Part shown: piece after piece, positions 22,434-58,747 of the stretch
Position numbering within the stretch: the first letter of the stretch is position 1
Layout of the letters: the number at the start of each line of letters is the position of its first letter
Source: Gammaproteobacteria bacterium
GTDB lineage: Bacteria > Pseudomonadota > Gammaproteobacteria > Eutrophobiales > Eutrophobiaceae
Assembly: GCA_965116495.1 (NCBI GenBank)
Contig: OZ220696.1
Coordinates: 1,472,001-1,536,000 of the forward strand
Direction: 5' to 3'
Length of the DNA: 64,000 bases
Program-made: the position numbers and the translations under genes
The notes under the pieces: model-generated
The model's database searches: none
What the model was told of the DNA's origin: nothing
What the model saw: the letters and a program-made list of their open reading frames with translations, nothing else

Positions 22434-24890
22434 GTGTCCAATACACCAGCCAATCTCCCCGAGCGCGCCGACGTGGTGATCATCGGTGGCGGCGTGATCG
22501 GCTGCTCAATCGCTTATCACCTGGCAAAATTCCACTCGCCGGACGTTGTACTGCTGGAGCGCAAACAGATCACATCCGGAACCACCTGGCATGCGGCTGG
22601 CCTGATCGGGCAGTTGCGCGGCTCCATCAATATGACCAAGCTCGCCCGTTACACCAGGGAACTCTACGACGGCCTGGAGGCGGAAACGGGACAGGCGACG
22701 GGCTACCGGCAATGCGGATCGGTCTCAATCGCCACCAGTGAAGAACGCTTCGAGGAACTGAAACGCAACGCATCGATGGCGCAGGTGTTCGGACTGAAAG
22801 TCGATGTCGTCACACCCGGAGCAATCAAGGAGCGGGTACCGCTGCTTCATACCGACGACGTGCTCGGCGGGATACATATTCCTTCCGACGGATACGGCAA
22901 CGCGGTCGATATCACCCAGGCACTGGCCAAAGGGGCACGGGCCAACGGCGCGCGGATTTACCAGAACGTGCCGGTAACGGCAATTCGTACCGGCGCCGGA
23001 CGGGCCACCGGCGTCAGCACCGGGTACGGCGATATGGATGCCGGCCACGTGGTGCTCTGCGCCGGTATGTGGACGCGGGACCTGGCCGCCACAATCGGGG
23101 TCAACGTCCCGCTGCACGCCTGCGAGCACTACTACGCGCTGTTTGAATCCGTCCGGGGACTGGATGAAAACCTGCCGGTGATACGCGACTACGACGCCTG
23201 CACCTATTACAAACACGACGCCGGCAAATTACTGGTAGGTGCGTTTGAACCCAGCGCCCGCCCCTGGGGTATGGGCGGCATTCCCGAAGACTTCTGCTTC
23301 GATGAGATTGCCGGTAATTTCGATCACTTCGAGCCAATCCTGAGTGATGCCATGGCGCGCGTGCCCGCGCTGGAATCGGCAGGAATACAGAAGTTCTTTT
23401 GCGGTCCGGAGAGCTTTACCCCGGACGTTCGTTACCATCTCGGCCAGGCGCCCGGTTTCGGGAATTGCTTTGTCGCCGCGGGCTTGAACTCAATCGGTCT
23501 GCAGTCCGCGGGGGGAATAGGAAAAGTCATGGCGGAATGGATCCGCGCCGGGCAGCCGCCGGCCGACCTCTGGGAAGTGGACGTGCGGCGCAACATGCCT
23601 TTCCAGGGCAACCGCAAATACCTGCGTGAGCGCGTATCCGAGAGCCTGGGCCTGCTCTACGCCAGGCACTACCCTTTTCGCCAATATGAGACTGCGCGGG
23701 GCGTGCGCAGGTCACCGCTTTACGATTGCCTGAAATCAGCAGGCGCCTGTCACGGTGAAACGGCCGGGTGGGAACGGCCGAACTGGTACGCGCCCCGGGG
23801 AGTGGAAGCCAGGTACGAATACAGTTACGGGCGCCAGAACTGGTTCGAATACTCGGCTGCCGAACACAGGGCGGTACGTGACAACGTCGGCCTGTTCGAC
23901 CAGTCGTCCTTCGCCAAGTACCGCCTGGAAGGAAGAGACGCGGCGCGGGTGCTGAACCATATTTGCGCCAACGACGTTGACGTCCGGCCCGGCCGTATCG
24001 TCTACACGCAATGGTTGAACGAGAAGGGCGGGATCGAAGCAGATCTGACGGTCACGCGTCTTGCGGAGGACAGCTTCCTGATCGTCACGGCTGCTGCCAC
24101 GGAAGTGCGCGATTTCCACTGGCTCAGACAACATATCCCAGACGCTGCCCATTGCGTGTTGACCAACGTGACATCGGCCATGGGCGTCATTTCCGTAATG
24201 GGTCCGAATGCGCGCAAACTGCTGCAACCATTGACACCGGCCGACCTGTCGAATGAGGCGTTCGGCTTTGCTACCAGCCGGGAGATAGAACTGGGTTACG
24301 CATTGGTGCGCGCTTCAAGAATTACCTTCGTCGGTGAGTTGGGCTGGGAGCTTTATATACCGACCGAGTTCGTAGCTGGAGTATACGAAACGATTGTCGC
24401 TGCCGGCGAGACGGCCGGTCTGGCCCACGCTGGTTATCATGCCCTCGATTCCCTGCGCATGGAAAAAGCCTACCGCCATTGGAGTCACGATATCACCGAC
24501 GAGGACACGCCGCTCGAAGCGGGCCTGGAATTTACGGTAAAGTTCGACAAGCCGGGCGGTTTCATCGGCCGCGACGCGTTACTGAAACAAAAGGAGCAAG
24601 GCATACGCAGACGCCTGTTGCAATTCAGGCTGCTGGATCCTGAACCCCTGCTTTACCACAACGAACCGATCTGGCACCGGGACAGGATTATCGGCCACGT
24701 GACATCCGGTAGTTACGGTCATACCCTGGGCGGAAGCATCGGCCTGGGCTACGTCGACACGTCGGAGGTTCGCGACCTGGAGGAGTTCGCCGGAGATGCG
24801 TTCGAAATCGAAGTGGCAGGCGCCCGCATCAGGGCTGAGGCTTCGCTGCGCCCCATGTACGATCCCGATGGGAGGAGAATTAGGAATTGA
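22434..24890 (+). CDS. GcvT-family FAD-dependent oxidoreductase (sarcosine/dimethylglycine dehydrogenase-like)
   Basis: GGGVIG, TSGTTWHAAG, GPESFTPD, GWERPNW, LRMEKAY. Confidence 0.9.
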   Translation: MSNTPANLPERADVVIIGGGVIGCSIAYHLAKFHSPDVVLLERKQITSGTTWHAAGLIGQLRGSINMTKLARYTRELYDGLEAETGQATGYRQCGSVSIATSEERFEELKRNASMAQVFGLKVDVVTPGAIKERVPLLHTDDVLGGIHIPSDGYGNAVDITQALAKGARANGARIYQNVPVTAIRTGAGRATGVSTGYGDMDAGHVVLCAGMWTRDLAATIGVNVPLHACEHYYALFESVRGLDENLPVIRDYDACTYYKHDAGKLLVGAFEPSARPWGMGGIPEDFCFDEIAGNFDHFEPILSDAMARVPALESAGIQKFFCGPESFTPDVRYHLGQAPGFGNCFVAAGLNSIGLQSAGGIGKVMAEWIRAGQPPADLWEVDVRRNMPFQGNRKYLRERVSESLGLLYARHYPFRQYETARGVRRSPLYDCLKSAGACHGETAGWERPNWYAPRGVEARYEYSYGRQNWFEYSAAEHRAVRDNVGLFDQSSFAKYRLEGRDAARVLNHICANDVDVRPGRIVYTQWLNEKGGIEADLTVTRLAEDSFLIVTAAATEVRDFHWLRQHIPDAAHCVLTNVTSAMGVISVMGPNARKLLQPLTPADLSNEAFGFATSREIELGYALVRASRITFVGELGWELYIPTEFVAGVYETIVAAGETAGLAHAGYHALDSLRMEKAYRHWSHDITDEDTPLEAGLEFTVKFDKPGGFIGRDALLKQKEQGIRRRLLQFRLLDPEPLLYHNEPIWHRDRIIGHVTSGSYGHTLGGSIGLGYVDTSEVRDLEEFAGDAFEIEVAGARIRAEASLRPMYDPDGRRIRN

Positions 24891-25066
24891 GAATTACGAA
24901 TTAGGAATTACGAATTACGAATTAGGAATTGGGGGGTACTGCGTCACAGTGTACCATGAACAGGCCTGCGGAAAATATGCGATTCTATGGTAAATGGCCG
25001 CCGCAGGCGGCATATTCATTCGTAATTCGTAATTCCTAATTCGTAATTCCTAATTGATCCTAATTC
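24877..25066 (+). mobile_element. Heptamer-array cassette, non-coding copy 1: (GAATTAN)8 - 89-bp core - (NTAATTC)n
   Basis: Inverted heptamer arrays; core is colinear with 58646-58733; mobility is inferred. Confidence 0.7.
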
Positions 25067-26604
25067 CTGCCGACAGCCGCGCGGGAAAGAAAAATCGGGA
25101 ACCTGGCCCGCACCTCGGAATCAGTCTCGTCACTGATATGGCGGGGAAAATGGCTGGCGAGAATGTCCCGCTTTTTCTCAATAGCCATTTGCAACATAAC
25201 CGGTTTTCCGCTTTCCTCCCACACGTTCGGGCTGGTGCGATCGCTGAAATCCGGATATATGTATTCGCTTTGCATGACCTTCAAGGTCCGGTCGGAGCCC
25301 AGGTAGTGGCCTTCGCCGCTGTTGCAGACCTGTTTTATTTCATCAAAACTCAGGGTTTCGGGATTAACTTCAATCCCTCTCGTTACCCGCATGGCGGCGC
25401 CCAGCACGTCGTTGTCCAGCAGGAGGCTCTCCGGGCAGGTGCCCAGGAGACTCGCGTACATACCTGCCGATTCGTAGACGAGGTTGGAGCCCGACAACGC
25501 CGCGGCCAGGGTCGTCGCGGCGCGTTCGGCGCCGGCCTGAAAATCCGGGAACTTCGAATCAGTCATGCCGCAGGCCGTACCGAAGGGTAGGTCGTAGACG
25601 TTGCCCATTTGCGCGCAGGCCGCAGACAGCAGCCCCTGTTCGGGCGAACCGCCGCTCATGGCGCCGGTGCGCAGGTCGGAAACGAATGGCCAGGCGCCGA
25701 GAATGGCCGGGGCGCCAGGTTCGATCGCGTTCACGTAGACCAGGCCGCCGAGACATTCGGCCCAGGCCTGGGATACCGCGCCGGCCAGACAGGCCGGCGT
25801 TGTCGCCCCTGCCTGTCCTGCGGACAGGAGCAGCACCGGCATACCGCCCTGCACTGCGATCCGCAAACATTCCAGGGACTCCTGGGCAAACTTCATGGGC
25901 GGCACGACAAAGCAGTTGGATTGACTGACAAACGGTCGCGCCCGCCACTCGGCCTCACCGCCCGCAATGATGTGCAACATTTCCAGGGTTTTTTCAAGAT
26001 GCCAGGATTCGGTCCAGCTCGAAGCCACGTGTTTGCCGGTGCCCATGACAACGCAGTAGGCGGTATTGAGGTCCATTTCGTAATTGTCAGCTATATCCCG
26101 CAACACACAGGTGCGCTGGAACATGTGTATGTGTTCACAGGTGTCGGCGATGCGCGCCATGTCGTAGAGGTCCTGTGCCGTCGACTCGCGGTACAGGTTG
26201 TTTTCAGGGTCGGCTATCATGACCGCGGCGCCGGCCGTTGCGAAGTGGACCTTGCTGCCGCTGAGGTGTAAATCGTGTGCGGGGTCCTGGCCGTGCAGCA
26301 CCAGGTTGCGTCTGGAAAGGCCCATGGCGCCTTCGACCACGGCTCTCGGCATTCTGAGACGGCCGTCATCGCCGAGCACGGCGCCGACGCCGGTACAGGT
26401 CTCTATGCAGTGGGGTGTCGCGTCGCCGAAGCCGACTTCTTCCAGAATCCTGAAGACGTTATCGTTTATCGCTGCGATATCCGCATCCTTCAGAGGCCGG
26501 AATTGTCCGCCGACTTCGCCAGGGTGAACGGGCTTGAGTTCAGCGGCCAGCGGTGCGCTGCGCAATGCCCTGCGCGCCTTTCTCCCACCGGATTGTCTTG
26601 CCAT
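25060..26604 (-). CDS. Trimethylamine methyltransferase (MttB) family, non-pyrrolysine (MtgB-like)
   Basis: AGQAGATTPACLAG, SDLRTGAMSGGSPE, DSKFPDFQAGAE, GHYLG; no in-frame TAG; start set at MARQSGGR. Confidence 0.9.
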   Translation of the reverse strand: MARQSGGRKARRALRSAPLAAELKPVHPGEVGGQFRPLKDADIAAINDNVFRILEEVGFGDATPHCIETCTGVGAVLGDDGRLRMPRAVVEGAMGLSRRNLVLHGQDPAHDLHLSGSKVHFATAGAAVMIADPENNLYRESTAQDLYDMARIADTCEHIHMFQRTCVLRDIADNYEMDLNTAYCVVMGTGKHVASSWTESWHLEKTLEMLHIIAGGEAEWRARPFVSQSNCFVVPPMKFAQESLECLRIAVQGGMPVLLLSAGQAGATTPACLAGAVSQAWAECLGGLVYVNAIEPGAPAILGAWPFVSDLRTGAMSGGSPEQGLLSAACAQMGNVYDLPFGTACGMTDSKFPDFQAGAERAATTLAAALSGSNLVYESAGMYASLLGTCPESLLLDNDVLGAAMRVTRGIEVNPETLSFDEIKQVCNSGEGHYLGSDRTLKVMQSEYIYPDFSDRTSPNVWEESGKPVMLQMAIEKKRDILASHFPRHISDETDSEVRARFPIFLSRAAVGRN

Positions 26605-26729
26605 CGCCGTTCTCTCCAGGGTTGGATTAAACCATCTCAGCAAAGCCGGGGAAATTATGGCAGATTGGCATGGAACGCGTCAATTCCCGAATTAACACCC
26701 ATGTGCTTGATCTAGTACTCTTTCCAGGA

Positions 26730-27467
26730 TCAGGCGCTGATGATTCCCCGTGTGCGTACAAGGCGCGTGCCGGTGTCGGCTGCTTCCGCAGCATCCCGGC
26801 AATATGCATCGGCGCCGACTGCCCTGCCGAACTCCTCGTTCAGAGGGGCGCCGCCGACCATGACGATATAATCATTGCGAATGTTTTGTGAGACCATCTC
26901 GTCAACCACGACTTTCATGTACGGCATGGTGGTGGTGAGCAGGGCGGACATCCCAAGAATGTCCGGCTGATGCTGTTCCAGGGCGGCAAAATAGTCTTCA
27001 ACGCTGTTGTTGATGCCGAGATTGATGACTTCAAATCCGGCCCCTTCCATCATCATCCCCACCAGGTTCTTACCGATGTCGTGGATGTCGCCCTTGACGG
27101 TGCCGATCACCATCTTGCCGATGGGTTTCGCCCCCGTTTCCGCCAGCAGCGGGCGTAACACTGCCATCCCGCCCTTCATGGCATTGGCCGCCAGCAACAC
27201 CTCCGGCACGAATAATATCCCGTCACGGAAATCAATACCCACGATTTGCATGCCGCCCACCAGGGCCTCGTTAAGCACCTTGTCCGCGCCCCAACCCCGG
27301 TCCAGGAGGAGTTGCGTACCCTCTATGATCTCGTCCTTAAGGCCGTCGTAGAGGTCATCGTGCATCTGTTCCACCAGTTCCGTGTCGTCCAGTTCGGACA
27401 GGACGAAGTCATCGTCCTGCTCGTCGTTCCAGATTTCTGCAGCGGCTTCTATATTCATTGCTGTCAT
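26730..27467 (-). CDS. Corrinoid (B12-binding) protein, MtgC-like
   Basis: GTVKGDIHDIGKNLV, MSALLTTTM, VGGAP. Confidence 0.93.
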   Translation of the reverse strand: MTAMNIEAAAEIWNDEQDDDFVLSELDDTELVEQMHDDLYDGLKDEIIEGTQLLLDRGWGADKVLNEALVGGMQIVGIDFRDGILFVPEVLLAANAMKGGMAVLRPLLAETGAKPIGKMVIGTVKGDIHDIGKNLVGMMMEGAGFEVINLGINNSVEDYFAALEQHQPDILGMSALLTTTMPYMKVVVDEMVSQNIRNDYIVMVGGAPLNEEFGRAVGADAYCRDAAEAADTGTRLVRTRGIISA

Positions 27468-27486
27468 GCCCCGTGAGTTAAGGTTA

Positions 27487-27717
27487 AAGAAGCGCTGATC
27501 AAGTCCGTCCAGGACTTGATCAGAACAAGGAAAACAAAAATGCGATTTTTGTTTTCACTCCCTACATCCCTGTAGCTTGCCGCAAAGCGGCAACAGCAAC
27601 TTGTTGTGCAAATCGGCTTTCCTGCCGATTTGTCCTTCCAAAATCAATGACTATGTATCATTGATTTTGGTGGTACATCCCGTACCGCAGAAACCTCAGA
27701 CTTAATCAGAGGTTCCT
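27487..27717. mobile_element. MITE with IS5-like terminal inverted repeats and multiple internal hairpins
   Basis: AAGAAGCGCTGATCAAGTC vs reverse complement AGGAACCTCTGATTAAGTC (15/19); same ends fused at 53840-53868. Confidence 0.6.
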
Positions 27718-27808
27718 GAAGGGAGTACGGTTTTAACTCTGCCCGCTTTCCTGAACGGCAATTTCGCGCAAGTCTGGATTAGCTGGTAATTTCGTGTATA
27801 TGGCAACA

Positions 27809-27834
27809 CGACGTTGTTACATGCATATGCGACA
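27809..27834 (-). promoter_or_regulatory. TGTCG-N16-CGTCG putative GlxA/GbdR-type box
   Basis: Upstream of the corrinoid/MttB operon, 21-bp spacing. Confidence 0.5.
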
Positions 27835-27917
27835 TATATCGTTACCGGCGGACGCTCGACAACCTGACGCTGCAGATTCCGGCGGGCCAGGATAATGCGC
27901 TCCCTGGCGTTTTCGGG

Positions 27918-29264
27918 TTAAATAAACACAAACCTGGCCAGGAAGATCAGCACCAGAAACCAGACGCCGGCAGAAATCTCCCTGAATTTACCGCTTGCCA
28001 GTTTGACGCTGACGTAGGTAATAAAGCCCACGGCAATGCCGTCAGCAATGGAGAAGGTCAACGGGATCGCCACGATAGTCAGCAACGCCGGGACCAGTTC
28101 GGTGGCATCCTCCCAGTCCAGTTCGCGCATGCCGCCCAGCATCAGCATGGCCACAAACAGCAGCGCCCCTGATGTCGCGAATTCAGGCACCATCTGCGCC
28201 AACGGGGCAAAGAATACCGCCAGCAGGAACAGGATACCCACCGTTACCGCGCTGAGTCCGGTGCGGCCGCCGCTGGCAATGCCCGCTACGCTTTCCACGT
28301 AGCTGGTGACCGGGGTACAGCCGAGACAGGCGCCCACCACGCTGGAGGAACTGTCAGCCTTAAGCGCACGCTCCAGGTTTTGTACCCTGCCCCCGGTGTC
28401 GATCAAACCGGCCCGTTGTGCAACTCCCATCAGGGTGCCGGTGGTATCGAACAGGTTGACGAACAGGAAGGCCGCCACCACGCTGATCATGGTTACATCC
28501 AGGGCGCCCGCAATGTCCAGTTGCAAGAAGGTTGCGGCCATATCCGGCGGCGCTGAAACCAGGCCCTGGTAGGATACCAGCCCGGTGAGCAGCCCGGCAG
28601 CGGTTATCGCCAGGATGCCCAGCATGATGGCCCCGGGCACCCCCCTCACCCCCAGGCCGGCTATCAGCAGGAAACCGACAGCAGCCAGCAGTGGTTCGGG
28701 CCGGGTCAGGTCGCCGAGAGTCAGGATAGTTGCGGGGTCGGCCACGACCAGCCCACCGTTCTGCAAGCCGATAAAGCCGATGAACAGGCCCACCCCGCAC
28801 CCCATGGCAAAACGCAGGTTCATGGGAATGCTGTTCAGCATCCAGCCGCGCAGGCGGGTAACGCTGATGATCACGAACAGCACGCTGGAAAGAAACACCG
28901 CCCCCAAACCGACCTGCCAACTGTGGCCCATGCTGCCCACCACCGTGTACGTGAAAAATGCATTCATGCCCATACCCGGCGCCAGGCCGACCGGCCAGTT
29001 CGCATACAGGCCCATGACCAGACAGGCCAGGGCGGAGGCCAGGCAGGTGGCGACAAAACTGGCGCCCTGATCGATCCCGGCGGCGGCCATCATCTGCGGA
29101 TTGACGAAGATAATATAGGCCATGGTGACGAAGGTGGTAAGACCTGCCAGGACTTCGGTACTGATCTTCGTGCCATGCTCCGACAGTCTGAACCGGCGCT
29201 CCAACAGGGTGGTGATTATATAAGGGACGGACTTGAGTCCGTCTCCGGACACGGTGTTTGTCAT
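27918..29264 (-). CDS. NCS2/AzgA-family permease
   Basis: EVLAGLTTFVTMAYIIFVNP, LAPGMGMNAFF, FDTTGT, YVES..G..GGRTG; start uncertain. Confidence 0.9.
   Translation of the reverse strand: MTNTVSGDGLKSVPYIITTLLERRFRLSEHGTKISTEVLAGLTTFVTMAYIIFVNPQMMAAAGIDQGASFVATCLASALACLVMGLYANWPVGLAPGMGMNAFFTYTVVGSMGHSWQVGLGAVFLSSVLFVIISVTRLRGWMLNSIPMNLRFAMGCGVGLFIGFIGLQNGGLVVADPATILTLGDLTRPEPLLAAVGFLLIAGLGVRGVPGAIMLGILAITAAGLLTGLVSYQGLVSAPPDMAATFLQLDIAGALDVTMISVVAAFLFVNLFDTTGTLMGVAQRAGLIDTGGRVQNLERALKADSSSSVVGACLGCTPVTSYVESVAGIASGGRTGLSAVTVGILFLLAVFFAPLAQMVPEFATSGALLFVAMLMLGGMRELDWEDATELVPALLTIVAIPLTFSIADGIAVGFITYVSVKLASGKFREISAGVWFLVLIFLARFVFI
29224..29246. repeat. REP-like palindrome GGGACGGACTTGAGTCCGTCTCC
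   Basis: Family of 7492 and 36818. Confidence 0.65.
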
Positions 29265-29435
29265 GATGCCAACAGGTTACAGGGATGGCAACCGGTTTTC
29301 CAGCCTGCTACGTGTGCCGGGATGATTTGAGCCGCCTGGAGGTATTGCGCAGAAAAGGCCGGGACCACCGTCAGACCTGATATTCGGGAATCTGTCCTGT
29401 GAGCCTGGGGCGGGTATGTATCTTTATTCCAACAA

Positions 29436-29460
29436 TGTCGTATATAGTATAAAAAAGTCG
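29436..29460 (+). promoter_or_regulatory. TGTCG-N15-AGTCG putative GlxA/GbdR-type box
   Basis: Upstream of TBDR; spacing is 20 rather than 21 bp. Confidence 0.35.
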
Positions 29461-29530
29461 AATTTTTATTTGTATTCAGACTTCCCTTTACCTATAATTG
29501 GCAGATAATCAAAAAACCAAGGGGAATACC

Positions 29531-32437: not shown

Positions 32438-32456
32438 CGTCAAAAAAAAGGAAGCG

Positions 32457-32495
32457 AAAAAAGCCGGCGTGTCCATCAAACACGCCGGCTTTTTT
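32457..32495. terminator. Bidirectional rho-independent terminator
   Basis: AAAAAAGCCGGCGTGT-loop-ACACGCCGGCTTTTTT. Confidence 0.85.
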
Positions 32496-32886: not shown

Positions 32887-34961
32887 AACCGGGGCAAGCC
32901 GGCACATCTGAAAATCTCACCCAAGCAAAAGAACTGATCCGGACAGCCAGGTTTGGTGATGCAATCTTTTGGCTGAAACAACTGCTTGCCTCAGAACCGG
33001 AAGACGACGACCGGGTGGAGGCCCTGTATATGCTGGCCGTCGCACAGCGTTACGGCAATCAGCCCGGCAAGGCTTTGACGACACTCGATACCCTGCTTGC
33101 CGATAATTCCGAATATGCACGAGCCCACCAGGAACGCGGCCACCTCTTTTTATCCCTTAACCGCGGCGAAGACGCTGCCCGGGCTTATGCCAGGGCGGTT
33201 GAATTAAACCCTGCCCTGAAAGCAAGCCTGAATGCGCTCGTCAACCTGGAAGAACGCGCCGGCAGGAAGGAACTGGCCCTGCCGGCCCGTGAAAGGCTGG
33301 ATTTTCTCAACCGGCTGCCTGCGGAACTGGTCAACGTGCTGGACCTCGTCCACGAGAATAAACTCTACAAGGCCGAACAGTTGTGCAGGGATTACCTGCA
33401 AAAACACAAACACCACATCGAAGCCATGCGTCTCCTGGCCGAAATAGGAGTACGGCTGAGCATTTACGATGATGCTGAATTCCTGCTGGAAAGCTGCGTG
33501 GAATTTGCGCCGGACCACGTTCAGGCCCGCATCGATTACGTCAATATCCTGATCCGGAAAACCCGGTTCGAGAAGGCACACGAACAAGCCAAAATCCTGC
33601 TGGATCTGGAACCGGATAATCCGGGCTTCCAAAGCACCCTGGCCGGCACGCTCGTCGGCCTGGGCAGGTTCGATGAAGGCATTGCCCTGTACGAAAAGGT
33701 ATTGGACACCCACCCCGGCCGCGCCGAGTTGCATGTTCAGGTGGGCCATGCCCGGAAAACCACGGGCCTGCTGGATAACGCGATTCAATCCTACCGGGAC
33801 GCGTACAGTCGCAGACCCGATTTCGGCGATGCCTACTGGAGTCTCGCCAACACCAAGACCTATCAGTTTACGGATGATGAGATCGACCTCATCAGGCATA
33901 ATGCCGACGCCCCGGGCGTATCGTTAAACGACAGGATTCACCTGTGTTTTGCCGGCGGCAAGGCGCTGGAAGACCGCGGTGAATATGCCGCTTCATTCGC
34001 CAGTTATGAGAAAGGCAATAATCTCAAGATGAGGCAGACCGGCTACAGGATTGAAAAGATGGAAGCGCGCGTCCAGGCGCAGACAGAGACCTGTACCAGC
34101 GAACTCTTTGAGAACCGGCAAGGTGTTGGGCTCGATTGCAGAGATCCGATCTTCATTGTCGGCCTGCCCCGCTCCGGTTCCACCCTGCTGGAACAGATCC
34201 TGGCGTCTCACAGTATGGTGGACGGCACCATGGAACTGCATAACATACTTGCCCTGGCGCAGAAACTGCGCGGAAGGGAATCTGAGAAGACCTCCAGATA
34301 TCCCGCTATCCTGCATGAATTGGAAGAAGACTATTTCCGTCGCTTTGGGGAGCAATTTATCAGGGATACCCGGATCTATCGCGCCGATGCGCCCCTGTTC
34401 ATCGACAAGATGCCGAATAACTTCATGCACGTCGGACTCATCCGCCTCATATTGCCGAATGCCAGGGTGATCGACGCCCGGCGCGAACCCATGGCCTGTT
34501 GTTTCAGTTGCTTCAAGCAGTTATTCGGTGAGGGCCAGGAGTTTACCTACGGCCTGGAGGAAGTAGGACGCTATTACCGCGCCTACGTGCGGTTGATGGA
34601 CCACTGGGACCGTGTACTGCCCGGTTTTGTCCTGCGTGTGATGCACGAAGACGTGGTCAACGACCTGGAAACCCAGGTGCGACGCATCCTCGATTTCTGC
34701 GACTTGCCTTTTGAAGAGGCCTGTATCAACTTCCACGAAACCGAACGCAGCGTCAGGACGCCCAGTTCCGAACAGGTCAGGCAACCCATCTACCGCAGCG
34801 GCCTGGAGCAATGGCGTAATTTCGAACCCTGGCTGGACCCACTGAAACAGGCGCTGGGGCCTGAGATCCTCGGAGTTCGTCATTCCGGCGAAAGCCCCTC
34901 TCGTCATTCCGGCGAAAGCCCCTCTCGTCGTTCCGGCGAAAGCCGGAATCCAGCGAAATAA
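32883..34961 (+). CDS. TPR-repeat sulfotransferase
   Basis: N-terminal TPRs; PIFIVGLPRSGSTLLEQIL, IDKMPNNF, VRTPSSEQVRQP. Confidence 0.92.
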   Translation: MKPGQAGTSENLTQAKELIRTARFGDAIFWLKQLLASEPEDDDRVEALYMLAVAQRYGNQPGKALTTLDTLLADNSEYARAHQERGHLFLSLNRGEDAARAYARAVELNPALKASLNALVNLEERAGRKELALPARERLDFLNRLPAELVNVLDLVHENKLYKAEQLCRDYLQKHKHHIEAMRLLAEIGVRLSIYDDAEFLLESCVEFAPDHVQARIDYVNILIRKTRFEKAHEQAKILLDLEPDNPGFQSTLAGTLVGLGRFDEGIALYEKVLDTHPGRAELHVQVGHARKTTGLLDNAIQSYRDAYSRRPDFGDAYWSLANTKTYQFTDDEIDLIRHNADAPGVSLNDRIHLCFAGGKALEDRGEYAASFASYEKGNNLKMRQTGYRIEKMEARVQAQTETCTSELFENRQGVGLDCRDPIFIVGLPRSGSTLLEQILASHSMVDGTMELHNILALAQKLRGRESEKTSRYPAILHELEEDYFRRFGEQFIRDTRIYRADAPLFIDKMPNNFMHVGLIRLILPNARVIDARREPMACCFSCFKQLFGEGQEFTYGLEEVGRYYRAYVRLMDHWDRVLPGFVLRVMHEDVVNDLETQVRRILDFCDLPFEEACINFHETERSVRTPSSEQVRQPIYRSGLEQWRNFEPWLDPLKQALGPEILGVRHSGESPSRHSGESPSRRSGESRNPAK
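34878..34953 (+). repeat. RPE-like unit amplified x3 (24 bp) inside CDS 3' end
   Basis: CGTCATTCCGGCGAAAGCCCCTCT repeats encode RHSGESPS. Confidence 0.85.
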
Positions 34962-50209: not shown

Positions 50210-50285
50210 GGTTTTAGGTACCTGGTAATGAGATCACACAGACACGCATATTAAGCGGCAGAAAATGACCGCTTAATCACGAGAA

Positions 50286-50311
50286 CGACCGGGATTAGTC
50301 AAAATACGCCA
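50286..50311 (-). promoter_or_regulatory. TGGCG-N16-GGTCG putative GlxA/GbdR-type box
   Basis: Upstream of the dehydrogenase start at 50209, 21-bp spacing. Confidence 0.45.
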
Positions 50312-50339
50312 TCAGAAAGGGAATCCTGATCCTGATGGC

Positions 50340-50396
50340 CATCCCTGGCTCTCTCCAATTCCTGCTTCCTAATTCCTAATTCTTAATTCCTAATTT
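50340..50396 (-). mobile_element. Heptamer-array cassette remnant (one arm plus leader and ATG, no ORF)
   Basis: GAATTGGAGAGAGCCAGGGATG matches 19/22 the leader GAATTGGAGTGAGTCAAGGATG of the four-helix gene. Confidence 0.65.
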
Positions 50397-50857: not shown

Positions 50858-50893
50858 GTTATTACCTCCTCATATATCAGGTTTTTTTACTGG

Positions 50894-51430: not shown

Positions 51431-51526
51431 TGCGTATATACCCTTTTCAATCTCTCACAGAGCCTTACATGACCCGTCCCTGGGCATAACTTTAACCCGT
51501 GACTGCGTTTACAGGAACCGTATCCA

Positions 51527-53812
51527 TTAGAAATGGTACTGTACCGAACCGACTACGCGGCGCGGCTGCTCCAGGGTGCCGATGATGATATAACCTGGAG
51601 CTCCGGGCAGTTTGCTACCCGCAAAGTTCGGGAATTCCTGCACGTCGATGTAGTAGTCCTCGTCGAACAGGTTCTCTATATGAACGCCGAACTCCCAGTT
51701 GTTCCACTCCACCCCGGCGCCCAGGTCCACGACGGTAAAATCAGGGTTCGTCCAGAACGGAAAATCATCCCCGGGAGAATCCCATAGTTGGGCATTGGTG
51801 GAAGCCTCCCCCTTGTAGCGCAGTTGCAGGCGCCCGAACAGGCGCATGTCATCGTTCACCTGCTGGTCGTAATCCAGGGCCGCGGTCGCGCTCCACTTTG
51901 CGGTGTTGGGCGGTCTCCTTCCCGAAAGGTCGGAGAGATAATCGCTTGGGGTCACGAATTCAGTACCATCGACCCATTCCGCGTCCACATAGCCAAACCC
52001 GGCGGACAGGGTCCAGTTCTCATGCATGGACAGGACCATATCGCCCTCCAGTCCCCATTGCTCTGAATCGCCGATATTGAAAATGCCCTCAAGTACGGTA
52101 CCGGTTTGAGGGTTCTTCGTCTGAAGTTCGAACTGCCGGCCCTCGTAATCGATATAGAAACCCGCCAGGGTCAATATCAGGCGGTCATCCAGCAACCTTC
52201 CCTTGTAGCCGATTTCAACCTGTGTTGCCTCTTCCGGTTCAATGTCGAACAGGGCGTTCTCGCCCTCCAGGTCGAACGCATTAAAACTCCCCGGCTCAAA
52301 ACCCTGGGAGAACGTCGCGTAGACCATTGACCGGTCATCATCAAAGAACATGGAGACGGACGCACGGCCCAATACCTCGGTGTTGGACTGATTTCCGGTG
52401 GTGCCACTGTCACGGTTGTGCGCGTCGAATTCCCAGTGGTCCACGCGCACACCGCCACCAATCTCGATGTTGTTCATGCGATAACTGAAGTTGGCAAAAC
52501 CCGCCACCTGTTCGCGTTTTTCGCTGAGGTTCTCGAAAGGAACTACTGCAATTATTGTCTCCTCGTCGCCGGGCGGTGGCAACTGGTAACCATGGAACTC
52601 GCTATAGTAAGGCGGAGTCAAGCTGTCTTCACAAGCGTTATCCAGGAAATAGCAGAAACTCAGGGGAACCGGAAGTTCCCCGAACTTGTGCCTCTTCCAG
52701 TCCAGGTAGTAGGCGCCGGCCTGCCATTGCAAGGGACTGTCATCCGTGGAGGTAAAGCGCAATTCCTGGGTCCATACCTCGACCGGCCATGACCGTGTCA
52801 GGTCGAGCACGAACTCCTGATCGATATCAAGATCGGTCTCGCGGTACGAGTCCGTGTCCGTATAGGAGGTAAGATATGTGGCGTCGAAGTTGCCGAAATC
52901 ATAGGTCAGTTCTATGCTGCCCGCGACGGTTTCCCGCTCGTGGCCCGCATTGTAGCTGGTGTCGATGATGTTGGTGTGGGTGAGATCACCGCTCATCTCC
53001 CGGTTCCAGATGTTGTTGGGCCCGTCGTACTCGTTGTAACGCAGGGTAGCGTAGAGCGAAAGCTGTTCGCTGATACTGCCGGCCAGGGCCGCGCGCACGC
53101 CGTATTTCTCCGTGTGCCCCACGTCGGGATCAACGTCCGGAACGCCGCCGTTCAGGCGCGGGGTGTTGGGGTTGACCAGGTACGAATCATCGGTCATGGC
53201 AAACCCATACAGCGCCAGTGCCCAATCATTGCCCAGCGGCACATTCAACTGGATCTCGCCATCATAGTAATTGTCTTCACCGGCCTGCGCTTTAACCCGG
53301 CCCGAAAAGGCTTCCGGGTCCGGCCGCCTGGTAACAAATTTGATCGCGCCGCCGATGTTGGCGCCGCCATACAGGATGCCCTGCGGCCCTTTCAACACCT
53401 CGATCCGTTCGAAATTGCCGAAGCGGGACGAAGCATCCCCGAACAACTGCACGTCATCCAGGTAAAACCCGGCCCCCTGGGTATTGCCGAATCCCCCCAG
53501 ACTGCGAATGGAGACATTGGGGTAACCGTCCAGGCGCCGGCTCATCCAGAGATTCGGCACGAGCAGCCCGATATCTTCCAGGCCGTTGATATTTGCGCTC
53601 TCCACCATGTCACCGGTGAAAGTGGTCAGCGATTCCGGTATCTCCAGCACGTTTTCCTGACGCTTACGGGCGGTAACGATGATCTCCTCCAACAGCGTAT
53701 CCCCTTGTGCCATGACTGCCTGACTGCTCAATAGCGCCCCCGCCGGTGTGAGCAACGTAATTGCGAGCATTGTCGTTGCCAACGCAGTGCTGCTGAAATG
53801 GTATCTGTTCAT
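51527..53812 (-). CDS. TonB-dependent receptor
   Basis: LEEIIVTARKR, IEVLKGPQGILYG, C-terminal QYHF. Confidence 0.95.
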   Translation of the reverse strand: MNRYHFSSTALATTMLAITLLTPAGALLSSQAVMAQGDTLLEEIIVTARKRQENVLEIPESLTTFTGDMVESANINGLEDIGLLVPNLWMSRRLDGYPNVSIRSLGGFGNTQGAGFYLDDVQLFGDASSRFGNFERIEVLKGPQGILYGGANIGGAIKFVTRRPDPEAFSGRVKAQAGEDNYYDGEIQLNVPLGNDWALALYGFAMTDDSYLVNPNTPRLNGGVPDVDPDVGHTEKYGVRAALAGSISEQLSLYATLRYNEYDGPNNIWNREMSGDLTHTNIIDTSYNAGHERETVAGSIELTYDFGNFDATYLTSYTDTDSYRETDLDIDQEFVLDLTRSWPVEVWTQELRFTSTDDSPLQWQAGAYYLDWKRHKFGELPVPLSFCYFLDNACEDSLTPPYYSEFHGYQLPPPGDEETIIAVVPFENLSEKREQVAGFANFSYRMNNIEIGGGVRVDHWEFDAHNRDSGTTGNQSNTEVLGRASVSMFFDDDRSMVYATFSQGFEPGSFNAFDLEGENALFDIEPEEATQVEIGYKGRLLDDRLILTLAGFYIDYEGRQFELQTKNPQTGTVLEGIFNIGDSEQWGLEGDMVLSMHENWTLSAGFGYVDAEWVDGTEFVTPSDYLSDLSGRRPPNTAKWSATAALDYDQQVNDDMRLFGRLQLRYKGEASTNAQLWDSPGDDFPFWTNPDFTVVDLGAGVEWNNWEFGVHIENLFDEDYYIDVQEFPNFAGSKLPGAPGYIIIGTLEQPRRVVGSVQYHF

Positions 53813-53839
53813 GTACTTACCCCCGTTGCTGATATATTA

Positions 53840-53868
53840 GGGAAGCTCTGATTTAATCAGAGGTTCCT
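53840..53868. repeat. Head-to-head IS5-like termini with no interior (GGGAAGCTCTGATTTAATCAGAGGTTCCT)
   Basis: Right half identical to the MITE end at 27702-27717. Confidence 0.6.
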
Positions 53869-54092
53869 TTGTTGTATTTTAGCCAGGCGAGTGTACTAGA
53901 TAATACAGTAACCGGCTTGTTTACCGGTGAAACTGTAGCTGTCTGAACGTGCAATCAACCCGGAACAGGGGCTTTTGCCGGTCAACCCGGTAGCCCCCGC
54001 AGCTTGACGTTGGCCATTCCCGTCTATCAGTTGCCAACTCTGGATTAATCTTGACCCGTCAATCGATCGATCAGAATTAAATGGAAAGAGTA

Positions 54093-55139
54093 CTAGAAAC
54101 TGTACCTCATCGACAACACGGCCCTGGTGTCTTTGGTATCAATGAAATTCAGGTGTCCGACGTCTGCCCGGGCGTCTTCGTGGTTGAGGCCGAGGTTGGC
54201 AGACAGGCCGCGTGCCACGTCATACCGGAGTCCCAGCGCGGCGGAGATTTTATCCTCGCCTTCCAGTTGGCCGTAATGGCCTTCCACGGATAAAGTGAGC
54301 ATGCGGATCTTGAGATGGGCGCCGGATGAAACATACCATTGCATCGTGTCCGGGACCAGCGGCAGCGTTGCGGAAAAATGTTCATAGCCGGCGCCGATAT
54401 CGAACAACATGCTGCCGTAGACCAACTCGCCGACGAGGCCCGCTCCCTTGGTCTCGTATCGGTAGGTGGTATGCTCGGGGGTATAGGTTCCCTGGGTATA
54501 GCGCGCGGTGAAACGGTAGTCCCGGGTACCGAGGGGACGCTGGAACATGGCGCCCAGGTCGAAATTGCTTTCTTCATCTACTACGGCGCTCATTACCACC
54601 GGCCCGAAACGGCCCACGTAAGCGCCGCCCCAGTTTTCCAGCCCACCGAACGCGTCATCGAAAGCCAGGAAGGCATTGCCGGCGCCACGCAAGCGCCGTG
54701 TCTGTTCGCGCACTATACCGGAGAGATTACCGCCCAGCACCGTGCCCCAGGCGCCGCCCACGGACAGCGCGACGTTGTCCTGATAGTTTTCTCCCATATC
54801 AACGGCCATTTCCGGGTCGGTGGTGTACTGGCCGAAATACGCCAGGTTGACGCGCCAGCGGTTCGGCAATTGGGTGGTAGCGCTGACCTGGAAATTGCCA
54901 ATGAAACCTTCGTCGTCATTCCCGTCTCCATCCAGACCGAAACTCACCGGGGTGTCTACCAGGCCGTTCAGCCTTAATGTAACGTCTGCCAGTTCAAGCG
55001 CCAGCGGCTCCTCCAGCGACGACAAGCGGTCATAATTCAGGGACGCGCCCTGTGCCGCCGCCGTATTGAAGACGGCGTTTGCGCCGACGCAGGCCACGAG
55101 GAAAACAAGTACGGCGTGCAATTTGCTGTAAACGTTCAT
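54093..55139 (-). CDS. Porin-like outer-membrane beta-barrel protein
   Basis: Signal peptide, amphipathic strands, C-terminal MRYSF. Confidence 0.75.
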   Translation of the reverse strand: MNVYSKLHAVLVFLVACVGANAVFNTAAAQGASLNYDRLSSLEEPLALELADVTLRLNGLVDTPVSFGLDGDGNDDEGFIGNFQVSATTQLPNRWRVNLAYFGQYTTDPEMAVDMGENYQDNVALSVGGAWGTVLGGNLSGIVREQTRRLRGAGNAFLAFDDAFGGLENWGGAYVGRFGPVVMSAVVDEESNFDLGAMFQRPLGTRDYRFTARYTQGTYTPEHTTYRYETKGAGLVGELVYGSMLFDIGAGYEHFSATLPLVPDTMQWYVSSGAHLKIRMLTLSVEGHYGQLEGEDKISAALGLRYDVARGLSANLGLNHEDARADVGHLNFIDTKDTRAVLSMRYSF

Positions 55140-55143
55140 GACG

Positions 55144-56520
55144 TCAGACCTTTTTTGGGAAGGTGGAATGGAAGGCCTGACGGGCGATGGCGCGGCCGGC
55201 CTTCATTGCTTGGGTATGATCCAGCTCCCAGTGCACTCCGCCGTAGAGACGGCTCATGCCATTCTCTTCCGCCGCCTGGCTCAGACTGCTCCAATGCCGG
55301 GTAACGCCCCTTAACTGCGGCCACAGTACTTCATCAGGTGAACGTGCTGAAAACGCAACGTCGTCACGATCGCAAAACAGCCCTATCATCTCTGCGCCAG
55401 CGCTGCCAAAAGTGGAGTGTCCCGCAGTGTAGGAAGGAAATTCCGGAGTCGGGATAAAACTGAGCCAATCAGGCTGCAGCTTGACGCGCGGGTCCGGGTT
55501 TTGAAACTCCGGCGCTCGAACCCGAATGGCGGTTTCCGGTCGAATGATATCATGGTGGTACTTGCTGTCCCAGGCGCTGATGGAGGCATCGCACTGGGTC
55601 ATGCCAATTAAGGCAAAGGCACGCGCCAGGTCTATGAAACTGAGATCGAGGTACTGCAACAGTTGTATCGCGATATAGATAAAGTGTCCCGCTGGGGTGA
55701 TGCCCCATGGACCGTCCTCCCAGAACAGCGCTATCTCCTCCTCGGCGGCAGTCCGGATCTTGCTATCCATGCCGCCCAGCCTCCTTATATTATTGAATTC
55801 ATTAGCAAATTCCGGGCTTTCCGGGTCATGGAAGTCAACTGCGCGAAATTGTGACCCGCTTTTCATGGTCCAGGGTTTGATGTGACCGTGGCCGGGATAC
55901 AGGCAACGCGTGAAGGAAGAAAAAGCCGGCCCCGGCCTGGCGCCGTAGAACGGGCCGGTGGGACTCCAGCGCAACGAGTCGCCACGCCGGGGATAACGCC
56001 CGAGATAATAGGTGGCTTCCTCAGGCTCACTCCCGTCGTTGGTACGCATTTTGACCACATGCAAACCGACCGCGCGTCCCCATTCCGCCCCCAGGGATTT
56101 GGCTTCACCAGCGGGGAATCGACTCTGGAACGCGAGACGTTCAATCAGAAACGGTTGTTGAAACGCTTCCGCGGCGGCTATCGCGAACGCAGCGCCATAG
56201 GCTACCTCCGGGTCTGCGCCACTCGGACCATGACCGATACCAAATGGTTCCTCATAAGCCTGGACGATCCCGTTGGCAGCCAGAAACCCGGCGGCCATGG
56301 GCATGGCATAGTTATACGCCGCCCGGGGCGGTGTGACGCGCTGGTCGCGTACCTGCTGCAACACAATATCCACCCAGTGAAACACCGTGTTCCGGTTCTG
56401 CGGTTCAAGAATCTGACTCAGGTACGATGCTCTGCTGCCGTAAGCACTGGCGCATCCTTTGGCCAGCAAGGCAGACGCAGCGCCCGCTCCGGCCAGGAAT
56501 TGTCTTCGTGAAAATTTCAT
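55144..56520 (-). CDS. Tat-exported vanadium-dependent haloperoxidase (PAP2 superfamily)
   Basis: SRRQFL Tat motif; WDSKY...RP, PSYTAGHS, SRLYGGVHW. Confidence 0.85.
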   Translation of the reverse strand: MKFSRRQFLAGAGAASALLAKGCASAYGSRASYLSQILEPQNRNTVFHWVDIVLQQVRDQRVTPPRAAYNYAMPMAAGFLAANGIVQAYEEPFGIGHGPSGADPEVAYGAAFAIAAAEAFQQPFLIERLAFQSRFPAGEAKSLGAEWGRAVGLHVVKMRTNDGSEPEEATYYLGRYPRRGDSLRWSPTGPFYGARPGPAFSSFTRCLYPGHGHIKPWTMKSGSQFRAVDFHDPESPEFANEFNNIRRLGGMDSKIRTAAEEEIALFWEDGPWGITPAGHFIYIAIQLLQYLDLSFIDLARAFALIGMTQCDASISAWDSKYHHDIIRPETAIRVRAPEFQNPDPRVKLQPDWLSFIPTPEFPSYTAGHSTFGSAGAEMIGLFCDRDDVAFSARSPDEVLWPQLRGVTRHWSSLSQAAEENGMSRLYGGVHWELDHTQAMKAGRAIARQAFHSTFPKKV

Positions 56521-56728
56521 TGTTAAGGCCCTCCCAAATCAACAAAATCACTCACATCCATACAACAATTTATTTTCTGAGAAAGTAATTATAATTATAT
56601 CAATATGATATGTCAACATTATTATAAAATAAATTAAAAACCCTTGCTAACTGCGCATAATGAGGTGTGCGCCTGCTTGCCCCGGTTGACATAGCCCTGC
56701 CCCGGCAACTCCTATATAATTCCCCGTT

Positions 56729-57079
56729 ATGCCTGAGTACCTAATCGCGCCGTCAATACTCTCCGCCGACATGGCCCGCCTGGGTGAGGAGGTGGAGACC
56801 GTCGTTGCCGCGGGCGCCGACTACATCCACGTGGATGTGATGGATAACCACTACGTGCCGAACCTGACGTTTGGCCTGGTGGCGGCGCACGCGCTGCGGG
56901 AACACGGTATTACCGCACCCCTGGACGTGCACCTGATGATTGAACCGGTGGACCGGATCATCCCGGACTTTGCCGCGGCCGGTGCGGATACGTTTGTGGC
57001 GGGTTCAGCGATATTCGGCAGCGCTGATTACGCCACCACTATCGCAGCGATGAGAGCAGCATTGACCACGGCAGGGTAA
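56729..57079 (+). pseudogene. rpe: Ribulose-phosphate 3-epimerase with large in-frame internal deletion
   Basis: [28 protein letters not shown], then IPDFAAAGA joined to [11 protein letters not shown]; MSVNPGFGGQ and DGG missing; 116 aa. Confidence 0.85.
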
Positions 57080-57085
57080 CAGGCC

Positions 57086-57607
57086 ATGCTGTTGATGATT
57101 GACAATTACGATTCCTTTACCTACAACCTGGTTCAATACTTCGGCGAACTGGGCCAGGAGGTTGATGTCTACCGCAATGACCAGGTTTCCCCGGAGCGGA
57201 TCCACGAACTGGGGCCGGAACACATCGTGATCTCCCCGGGACTCTGCACACCGAGCGAAGCCGGCATATCGGTTGACGTGATCAACGAGTTCATGGATAA
57301 GGTCCCGATCCTGGGGGTGTGCCTGGGGCACCAGAGCATCGGCCAGGCATTGGGCGGACGCATCGTCCATGCCAACCGCATCATGCACGGCAAGACCTCT
57401 GACATACATCATCGAAATACGGATGTTTTTACCGGCCTGGACTGCCTGCAGGTGACGGCCTGGACCTGCTCTGAAGCTGGGGATGTCGATGAAATCATGG
57501 GAGTAAGGCACAAGAATTATCCCGTTTACGGCGTGCAGTTCCATCCCGAGTCGATCCTGACCACTTTCGGCCATGACCTGCTCAGGAATTTCCTGCAAAT
57601 CAACTAG
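57086..57607 (+). pseudogene. trpG: Anthranilate synthase/PabA component II with in-frame deletion
   Basis: [24 protein letters not shown] present; RYHSL segment missing (VFTGL|DCLQV); PGP changed to PGL. Confidence 0.75.
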
Positions 57608-57618
57608 TGCGGAGGGCA

Positions 57619-58596
57619 ATGGCAAAGACTAATTCACAATCGTGCGTCAATACCTGGTCCACGGACAGCCTGGCGAAGAGCGACCGCTTCGATGCCTGGG
57701 CAACCGTTCTCAATGAGGCGTATGGCCGCTGGGAAATGGATCGGGCGCAGGCGCCCGACTTCTTCAGCCGCGTCAAGCATTACGACGACACCCTGCTGAA
57801 GGTCATTGAATGCACCTGCGACCCGTGCGGCGCGACCCGCACCCGCGCCAGCATCCGCGCCGACGGGCTGGAGAACCTGACCGTACAGGCGGTACTGGCT
57901 GGCCGGGAATATATCAACTTCAACGGCGAGGACATCCTACTGAAAGCAGGCGATCTCCTGATCTGGGACAGCACCCGGCCCATGACGTTCCAGGTGCAGA
58001 ACCGCTTGCACAAGATCTCCGTGATGCTGCCCTTGCCGCGCTTTCAATCCTGGCTGCCCCGCTCCTGGTTCTCCATTCGCCACTCGCTGGATGGGCAATC
58101 AAACAGCGGCCTGTTATTGACCAACCATATCAAATCACTGCGGGATTCGGTCTTCGACGGCGGCTGCAAGGACAACCATGCCTTGGTTGATGCGACCATC
58201 GGCGTGCTGGTCAACGCACTGGAGATGGGCAGCGCGGATGATCCGACCCCGCTGCGCGTCACCCAGTTACGCTATATCAAGGAATACATCCGGGCCAACA
58301 TTCGCGACCCTGAGCTGTCCCCGGCCTTGATCGCCAAGGCCGGCGGCATGTCCTCCCGTTACCTGCACTGGCTGTTCAATGCCAACGAGGATGAGGATAC
58401 GGTCAAACAGTATATTTTCCACCAGCGCCTGGACCTGTGCGCCCGTGACCTGTCGAATCCGCACATGAAACACAGGAAAATCTCCGATATTGCCTTCTAC
58501 TGGGGTTTCCAGGACACCGCCCATTTCAACAAACGCTTCAAGCAGCAGCACCAGTTGTCGCCGGGCGCGTTTCGGGAGAAGATGCAGAAGGATTAA
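57619..58596 (+). CDS. AraC-family regulator (FeaR-like)
   Basis: IRANIRDPELSP, SSRYLHWLF, ISDIAFYWGFQDTAHFNKRFK; GGAGG RBS. Confidence 0.9.
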   Translation: MAKTNSQSCVNTWSTDSLAKSDRFDAWATVLNEAYGRWEMDRAQAPDFFSRVKHYDDTLLKVIECTCDPCGATRTRASIRADGLENLTVQAVLAGREYINFNGEDILLKAGDLLIWDSTRPMTFQVQNRLHKISVMLPLPRFQSWLPRSWFSIRHSLDGQSNSGLLLTNHIKSLRDSVFDGGCKDNHALVDATIGVLVNALEMGSADDPTPLRVTQLRYIKEYIRANIRDPELSPALIAKAGGMSSRYLHWLFNANEDEDTVKQYIFHQRLDLCARDLSNPHMKHRKISDIAFYWGFQDTAHFNKRFKQQHQLSPGAFREKMQKD

Positions 58597-58747
58597 GAAT
58601 TAGGAATTAAGAATTACGAATTAGGAATTAAGAATTAGGAATTGGAGTTGTTGCATTACCGTGTTTCCTACTCCGGCCTGCGGAAGTTCTTTGATTAACA
58701 GGTAAACAGCCGCCACCGGCGGCACATTCATTCTTAATTCCTAATTC
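58590..58747 (+). mobile_element. Heptamer-array cassette, non-coding copy 2
   Basis: (GAATTAN)n-GAATTGG, 88-bp core homologous to 24933-25021, short inverted arm. Confidence 0.7.

What the first reader, a model, noticed from the sequence alone, without database searches (positions are those of the whole stretch)
24877..58747. Two non-coding heptamer cassettes share a conserved ~88-bp core
Cores at 24933-25021 and 58646-58733 align almost without gaps (TGC.T.AC.GTGT...GGCCTGCGGAA...GATT....GGTAAA..GCCGCC-NNN-GGCGGCA.ATTCATTC), including a GCCGCC/GGCGGC hairpin with a variable loop. They have the same arms and polarity as the four-helix cassette. They look like non-autonomous members or a small structured RNA cargo.
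Basis: partly seen in the sequence, partly recalled or inferred. Interest (0 to 1): 0.7.

Follow-up and report, generated by a model that had tools for sequence, protein, structure and literature searches.

The report
Flipping repeat cassettes between bacterial genes
The two sequences belong to a family of about 22 short non-coding inserts held between mirror-image 7-base repeats at gene ends; related species show these inserts present, absent, swapped or flipped at the same spots, and they likely travel between species by recombination at the repeats rather than acting as small RNAs.

Summary
In detail: the two cores match at 60 of 89 columns with one end gap. They are 2 of 22 copies in this genome, all beside GAATTAN arrays. 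The family is abundant in only 6 of 23 genus genomes, and these are not a clade. Of 56 relatives' copies at syntenic junctions, this genome has no array at 28, arrays without core at 8, the core in the same orientation at 12 and inverted at 8; site 2 is flipped in G005. Orthologous cores are often 90-100% identical while neighbouring synonymous sites are about 62%. The body shows no coding or folding signal; only the hairpin end is conserved, without covariation. Best reading: an exchangeable fill between recombining heptamer arms, flipped, copied and passed between species. A structured small RNA is not supported. The four-helix gene shares the arms but not the core, and was not found in 4 of 6 array-rich genomes.

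The parts
24877..24932 (+). Site 1 left arm: 8 GAATTAN heptamers; overlaps the last codons and stop of the GcvT/dimethylglycine-oxidase-like gene (22434-24890)
24933..25014 (+). Site 1 core fill (82 bp). G005 holds a different core here (69% identical); G015, G016 and G022 hold only a stub
24997..25011 (+). 6-bp GC hairpin, the conserved part of the core; terminator-like by pattern scan
25015..25056 (-). Site 1 right arm: inverted heptamer array next to the stop of the convergent trimethylamine-methyltransferase-like gene (25060-26643)
58590..58645 (+). Site 2 left arm: 8 heptamers; contains the stop codon of the AraC/FeaR-like gene (57607-58596)
58646..58726 (+). Site 2 core fill (81 bp); a 93% identical copy lies inverted at the same junction in G005
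58709..58723 (+). 6-bp GC hairpin of core 2
58727..58747 (-). Site 2 right arm (3 units)
60749..60790 (+). Arm of the four-helix cassette; overlaps the gene's stop
60780..61157 (-). TIGR02436/PF05635 four-helix-bundle gene: another fill between the same arms. Inverted at the same junction in G007; stub only in G016 and G022
61184..61260 (-). Other arm of the four-helix cassette (11 units); overlaps the stop of the aptA-like gene
50369..50396 (-). Solo heptamer arm without core; longer in G022, paired and duplicated in G005

Best explanation
The core is a non-coding 81-base fill held between inverted heptamer arrays at gene junctions, and it likely flips, copies and passes between species by recombination that uses the arrays as homology. 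Shown: dispersal (22 copies), strict association with arms, empty or differently filled orthologous sites, both orientations at one junction, near-identical paralogs at unrelated junctions, patchy spread over the genus tree, and orthologous copies more alike than neighbouring synonymous sites. Inferred: (1) crossover between the two inverted arms flips the fill; (2) arm-to-arm conversion copies or replaces fills between loci; (3) DNA from a co-occurring species replaces a junction together with roughly 25 bases of flank; (4) this fill is the commonest because its GC hairpin is either a useful weak terminator or mRNA-end stabiliser, or a recognition signal. No dedicated enzyme was identified; host recombination is assumed.
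For: 22 of 22 hits carry arms. Of 56 syntenic comparisons: 28 no array, 8 arms only, 12 same orientation, 8 inverted. Four of 13 shared sites have an inverted ortholog at 93-100% identity, three of them seen in single-contig genomes. Six within-genome paralog pairs are 95-99% identical, with unrelated flanks. Arm-bearing junctions often hold different fills: 13 of 16 pairs. Unrelated fills behave alike: 27-bp and 12-bp fills are 100% identical at orthologous sites with 79-87% flanks, and the four-helix gene is itself inverted in G007. Array-rich genomes are not a clade: AU p 2.9e-6 (rpoB), 7.4e-4 (mttB-like), 1.4e-55 (aptA-like). Cores are >=90% identical in 12 of 20 orthologous comparisons, against four-fold sites near 0.62 and a median of 0.76-0.77 for plain spacers of similar length. 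At 8 junctions, the 25 bases beside the cassette match G016/G022 (0.89-0.91) rather than the array-free sisters G001/G019 (0.68-0.69), and the pattern reverses at 250-500 bases; informative sites are 25:6 near and 229:484 beyond. A G005-type allele and this genome's allele occur in one sequencing run (one search read).
Against: Four-fold sites pooled over 20 comparisons show no rise towards the cassette (0.58 at 0-30 bases, 0.63 at 250-500). The near-flank signal could partly arise because the sisters replaced their own junctions; they carry other repeats there. Junctions with other repeat families show the same bias (16:5) while plain ones do not (9:23), so it is not specific to heptamers. 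About 20% of plain spacers also reach 90% identity, mostly beside recently exchanged genes, and several core sites have one such flank. Sites and genomes are not independent, so p-values overstate. Arm homology alone does not explain why the same core returns to the same junction, nor how arms first appear at 28 array-free sites. No breakpoint, intermediate or within-population inversion was seen. G016 and G007 are fragmented assemblies in which a flip could be an assembly error.
Confidence: 0.55

Rival explanations
1. The cores are non-autonomous elements copied in trans by the four-helix-bundle protein, which recognises the heptamer arms (REPIN/RAYT-like partnership, perhaps through an RNA hairpin).
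For: Same arms and inner arm ends. 18 of 18 four-helix loci examined have inverted-repeat flanks (scores 18-33; control maximum 15). The four-helix cassette is itself absent or inverted at its junction in relatives. Conservation concentrates on the hairpin and linker beside one arm (0.89-0.93 against 0.73 for the body). New arm sites need some origin.
Against: No such gene was found in G005, G015, G016 or G022, two of them single-contig, despite recent copies. No homology between core and gene. The family is described as of unknown function (PMC4990558, passages); no catalytic activity was shown here. No adenine-biased substitution of the kind recalled for diversity-generating retroelements.
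Confidence: 0.2
2. The cassettes are old, vertically inherited and domesticated: each is held by selection at its junction as a terminator or RNA-processing hairpin, and array-free species lost them.
For: Orthologous cores are highly conserved. Cores are enriched at convergent junctions (25 of 63 classified, against 51 of 298 for other repeats) and favour the sense orientation in operons (21:8). The T-rich tail is on the minus strand. Whole cassettes fold into long stems (z -8.9 and -4.4).
Against: It needs repeated complete purging in sister species. Paralog bodies drift to 67-73% identity with no structure. Either orientation is tolerated at one junction. Arbitrary short fills are equally conserved. 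The gene-orientation calls are rough, with many 'unsure', and count orthologs repeatedly.
Confidence: 0.15
3. The core is a small structured RNA gene carried as cargo.
For: Length is conserved (80-82 bp in most full copies) and the hairpin is kept (92.6% of cells paired).
Against: No Rfam match. Body folding z about 0. RNAalifold finds only the hairpin, covariation term 0.03. One compensatory cell, reached by 232 of 500 shuffles. No promoter-like site. Truncated copies and 10-19-base deletions are common.
Confidence: 0.06
4. The core is a decayed fragment of a protein gene once carried between the arms.
For: One frame reads open in the consensus; one reverse frame shows a synonymous excess (p 0.018, one of six tests).
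Against: That frame has stops in 25 of 41 copies. Indels are not triplets. No match to a four-helix profile (best E 3). No match in plasmid or phage collections.
Confidence: 0.04

Closest known systems
REPINs / REP-RAYT systems (Bertels and Rainey, bioRxiv 10.1101/2021.07.10.451892; Di Nocera et al., PMC3733652; passages read)
   Same: About 100-200 bp, extragenic, non-autonomous, hairpin-forming, many diverged copies per genome.
   Different: The arms are variable tandem heptamer arrays, not paired short palindromes with GTAG/CGTC tags. The spacer is a family of its own with one internal hairpin. No partner transposase was tied to it. The distribution looks horizontal, whereas REPINs are described as vertically inherited.
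Heptameric repeat arrays of Xanthomonas/Nostoc (PMC4692102; abstract and passages) and Beggiatoaceae TAACTGA repeats (PMC4679880; passages)
   Same: Intergenic heptamer arrays of variable length near gene ends; convergent inverted pairs are reported in Xanthomonas; horizontal spread is suggested for TAACTGA.
   Different: The unit is AT-rich GAATTAN. The passages read report no conserved fill, inversion or exchange of fills; the Xanthomonas loci are described as stable.
ORF-bearing 23S rRNA intervening sequence with S23p/PF05635 (Coxiella; PMC4990558, passages)
   Same: Same protein family, terminal inverted repeats forming a stem, heptameric repeats of variable number beside the ORF.
   Different: Here the cassettes lie at protein-gene junctions, most carry no ORF, and RNase III excision is untested.
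MITEs (recalled definition)
   Same: Short, non-coding, terminal inverted repeats, dispersed, with filled and empty sites.
   Different: The ends are variable arrays; empty sites keep an arm stub and show no distinct target duplication; the interior flips and is replaced in place.

Membership tests
REPIN/REP | Two short palindromic REP units in inverted orientation with a variable spacer | tested here: not met
   The arms are tandem heptamers; there is one internal palindrome only
REPIN/REP | Terminal GTAG or CGTC tag | tested here: not met
   Neither tag borders the hairpin in the consensus
REPIN/REP | Cognate RAYT gene flanked by the repeat | tested here: inconclusive
   The only intact gene recognised between paired arms in G000 is TIGR02436 (33 pairs within 1.5 kb); RAYT families were not searched
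REPIN/REP | Extragenic, multicopy, diverged population | tested here: met
   22 copies; mean identity 67.5% among 14 full copies
REPIN/REP | Vertical inheritance | tested here: not met
   Array-rich genomes are not a clade in three gene trees; repeated loss is not formally excluded
MITE | Terminal inverted repeats | tested here: met
   Inverted arrays, but of variable length
MITE | Target-site duplication | tested here: inconclusive
   Empty sites keep a heptamer stub; no distinct duplication seen by eye
MITE | Autonomous transposase partner with the same ends | tested here: not met
   Only a non-transposase four-helix gene shares the ends, and it was not found in 4 of 6 array-rich genomes
Structured non-coding RNA | Covarying secondary structure | tested here: not met
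Structured non-coding RNA | Discrete transcript | not testable with these tools
   No RNA run holds more than 0.04 of the words
Heptamer-armed four-helix (PF05635) cassette | Inverted heptamer arms | tested here: met
   Cores 22 of 22 with an upstream array; four-helix loci 18 of 18 with inverted flanks
Heptamer-armed four-helix (PF05635) cassette | Core derived from the four-helix gene by deletion | tested here: not met
   No nucleotide or protein homology
23S rRNA intervening sequence | Location in rRNA | tested here: not met
   Both window sites lie between protein genes
23S rRNA intervening sequence | RNase III excision | not testable with these tools
   Only a long stem is predicted

The most novel reading that the evidence does not exclude
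Inverted heptamer arms are docking sites of an undescribed junction-homing system: any fill between them (this 81-bp core, short fills, the four-helix gene) is inverted, copied and moved between species into the same gene junction with only tens of bases of flank, with the pentameric PF05635 protein as a transient helper. That would give both bacterial heptamer repeats and this large protein family a mechanism.
Probability: 0.2. Interest if true: 0.8.

Novelty: new variant of a known kind. Interest (0 to 1): 0.5.

Why it matters
Heptamer repeats in bacteria are described but unexplained. This core is a traceable marker: long and variable enough to tell orthologs from paralogs, it shows directly that what lies between heptamer arms is gained, replaced and flipped, and probably crosses species boundaries into the same junction. 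That turns the question of how these repeats spread into a testable one (a marked fill between arms, with and without recA or the four-helix protein). The element itself is confined to one uncultured genus, so its direct reach is limited.

Tried and rejected
Rfam: no hit at the cores. Coding remnant: no frame passes after six tests. Adenine-biased mutagenesis: none; transitions dominate. Covariation in the body: top pairs reflect subfamilies, with no stacked helix. One search used misplaced columns and is discarded; one search is the valid count. Plasmid and phage BLAST: no match. Viral contigs with GAATTAN arrays: in the 80 loci examined, no core and no tblastn hit to the four-helix protein. 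The pattern for the hairpin-arm end found 38 loci across GTDB: 37 in five genus genomes and one in a Treponema record. In metagenomes it found 9: five full cores, three short ones, and one hairpin-arm end in an unrelated-looking context. A sequence-only model found the core in 2 of 61 family genomes, both in the genus. mis-set the cassette limits at several sites and is not used; one search stopped after four sites. Sequencing runs are contigs only: no inversion polymorphism could be shown, RNA runs hold 0.04 of the words, and habitat labels come from small shares and are not evidence. No intact GxxExxY gene in G000. Eight paper searches found no description of this core or of fill exchange between heptamer arms; most subscription journals are not covered and no supplements were read.
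Full report
OBSERVATION. The cores at 24933-25021 and 58646-58733 align with a single terminal gap and 60 of 89 identical columns. The body without the hairpin scores 12, where 5000 shuffles reach at most 3. Each core lies between a run of GAATTAN heptamers and an inverted run. Site 1 is between convergent GcvT-like and trimethylamine-methyltransferase-like genes; site 2 is between an AraC-like gene and an oxidoreductase. The arms overlap the stop codons of flanking genes. The third cassette, 60749-61260, holds a TIGR02436/PF05635 four-helix-bundle gene.

FAMILY IN THIS GENOME. A relaxed scan finds 45 forward and 43 reverse arrays (controls 2 and 3), forming 33 pairs and 22 solos. A profile of 14 full cores finds 22 hits at E<0.05, all with three or more upstream heptamers; none of the 23 weaker hits has an array. 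A body-only profile finds 14 hits at E<0.001, all within arms. The 14 full copies average 67.5% identity. Many arm pairs hold unrelated fills of 8-126 bp, so the arms do not need the core, but the core is never seen without arms.

WHAT THE CORE IS NOT. Rfam has no match there. Among 41 representatives under 90% identity, drawn from 60 distinct full cores, conservation is 0.73 in the body, 0.93 and 0.89 in the stem halves and 0.93 in the linker to the right arm; body folding z-scores are 0.4 and -0.05. RNAalifold predicts only the hairpin, with a covariation term of 0.03. In 36 aligned copies, 92.6% of stem cells pair, but there is one compensatory cell, matched by 232 of 500 shuffles. No frame shows a coding signature after six tests, and deletions of 10, 11 and 19 bases occur. 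The core has no homology to the four-helix gene.

DISTRIBUTION. GAATTAN arrays are abundant in 6 of 23 genus genomes (G000, G005, G007, G015, G016, G022), nearly absent in two and absent in 15. The core was found in those six and in 2 of 61 family genomes sampled, both in the genus. The array-rich genomes are not one clade in rpoB (five of them present; AU p 2.9e-6), mttB-like (six; 7.4e-4) or aptA-like (five; 1.4e-55) trees. G000 groups with the array-free G001 and G019 in all three.

ORTHOLOGOUS SITES. Site 1 holds a stub of two or three heptamers in G015, G016 and G022, a different core (69%) in G005, and other repeats or short spacers in the rest. Site 2 holds a 93% identical core, inverted, in G005. 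Of 64 core copies collected from five relatives, 8 had no syntenic position. Of the other 56, G000 has no array at 28, arrays without a detected core at 8, a core in the same orientation at 12 and an inverted core at 8. The 20 core-to-core comparisons cover 13 sites; at four the inverted ortholog is 93-100% identical. The four-helix cassette does the same: stub in G016 and G022, inverted in G007. In a further 40 array loci from relatives, 24 arm pairs were found: 16 faced an arm pair in G000, with the same fill in 3 and a different fill in 13; 6 faced no array and 2 had no synteny. Six within-genome paralog pairs are 95-99% identical at unrelated junctions.

EXCHANGE BETWEEN SPECIES. Cores are at least 90% identical in 12 of 20 orthologous comparisons, while four-fold synonymous sites in the flanking genes average about 0.62. 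At G000:800335 the core is 100% identical to G016's with four-fold identity of 0.60 and 0.51 on either side. Plain spacers of similar length have medians of 0.77 (39 of 91 plain spacers, G022) and 0.76 (37 of 74, G005); about 20% reach 0.9, mostly beside nearly identical genes. At eight junctions, G000's first 25 flanking bases match G016/G022 (0.89-0.91) better than its sisters (0.68-0.69), reversing at 250-500 bases (0.81 against 0.87-0.89). Informative sites run 25:6 near and 229:484 beyond. Against this, pooled four-fold sites show no gradient (0.58 near, 0.63 far). The sisters carry other repeats at these junctions and may have replaced them. Junctions with other repeats show the same bias (16:5), plain ones the opposite (9:23) (the rpoB control used G022 in place of G016). 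One run's contigs carry both this genome's site 2 allele and one whose seven listed differences match G005 (one search read by eye), so the two types can co-occur.

THE FOUR-HELIX GENE. All 18 homolog loci examined have inverted-repeat flanks (scores 18-33; control maximum 15), heptameric by eye with differing units. Earlier scan notes report the same on other DNA, and the Coxiella 23S intervening sequence has heptameric repeats beside its ORF of this family (PMC4990558, passages). The closest solved structure is an uncharacterised protein, 2rld. The gene was not found in G005, G015, G016 or G022, so it cannot be the resident driver of their recent copies.

MECHANISM. I favour the arms as the working part (0.55). 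Inverted arms 81 bases apart would flip the fill by crossover. Arms shared among dozens of loci would let one fill overwrite another. Incoming DNA from a neighbour species would replace a junction where arms and gene ends give homology. These steps are inferred from end states; no intermediate or enzyme was seen, and the first appearance of arms at a new junction is unexplained. The hairpin may explain this fill's success: cores are enriched at convergent junctions (25 of 63 classified, against 51 of 298 for other repeats) and favour one orientation in operons (21:8) (rough gene calls, non-independent counts). Rivals are mobilisation by the four-helix protein (0.2), vertical domestication (0.15), small RNA (0.06) and gene remnant (0.04).

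COMPARISON AND NOVELTY. It works like a REPIN or MITE but fails their defining tests (paired tagged palindromes, cognate transposase, vertical descent). Inverted heptamer pairs are in print for Xanthomonas (PMC4692102; abstract and passages), and dispersed heptamers for Beggiatoaceae (PMC4679880; passages). REPIN and REP features are taken from passages of 10.1101/2021.07.10.451892 and PMC3733652; the MITE and retroelement definitions are recalled. Eight searches found no account of this core or of fill flipping and exchange. Verdict: a new variant of a known kind, interest 0.5. The core itself is a genus-restricted repeat; its value is as a marker that shows how heptamer-armed cassettes behave.

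Noticed in passing
L302 (G007) versus window 60749-61260: The four-helix cassette sits at the same oxidoreductase/aptA junction in the opposite orientation (87% protein identity); G016 and G022 keep only a palindromic heptamer stub there.
   Followed up: yes
L013-L028, L031-L046, L283-L298, L396-L415: The same gene junctions hold different repeat families in different species (GTCATTCC type, GGGGTCAGAGTAA type, GGGGACGGA type, CGCAGAT type, and one probable toxin-antitoxin pair in L020). Three repeat-bearing non-heptamer junctions also show the short-tract exchange signal (16:5).
   Followed up: partly
L303/L426 (G001), G003, G014: A second heptamer family (TTTTAGT type) brackets a distant four-helix gene in G001 and is dispersed in G003 (33 matches) and G014 (10), genomes almost free of GAATTAN arrays.
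   Followed up: partly
window 24877-24890, 58590-58596, 61247-61260: Arms overlap and rewrite the last codons and stops of flanking genes. At site 1 the array-free G001 already has heptamer-like words at both gene ends, a possible seed.
   Followed up: partly
L111, L124: The hairpin-ACATTCATTC-array end occurs without the body in a Treponema record and in an unrelated-looking metagenome contig, so this end motif is older or wider than the core.
   Followed up: partly
G000:C1:2158952-2159333; L329:10497: A ~250-bp GC-rich element with its own terminal inverted repeats (AGTACCCTTTCC...) is nested in the right arm of a short core, and occurs alone in G022.
   Followed up: no
L429, L440; G000:C1:3739391: A 27-bp non-core fill is identical at the orthologous site in G016 and G000 and duplicated at a second G016 locus: other fills form small families too.
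   Followed up: partly
window 22250-22411, 34877-34944, 8336-8359: GTCATTCC-type palindromic repeats (352 motif matches in the genome).
   Followed up: no
window 16271-16556: Rfam 5_ureB_sRNA match (RF02514), unrelated to this finding.
   Followed up: no
window 57607-58596: The AraC-like gene is 98% identical to G005's although G005 is distant by rpoB (80% nucleotide): a recent gene-scale exchange next to site 2.
   Followed up: partly
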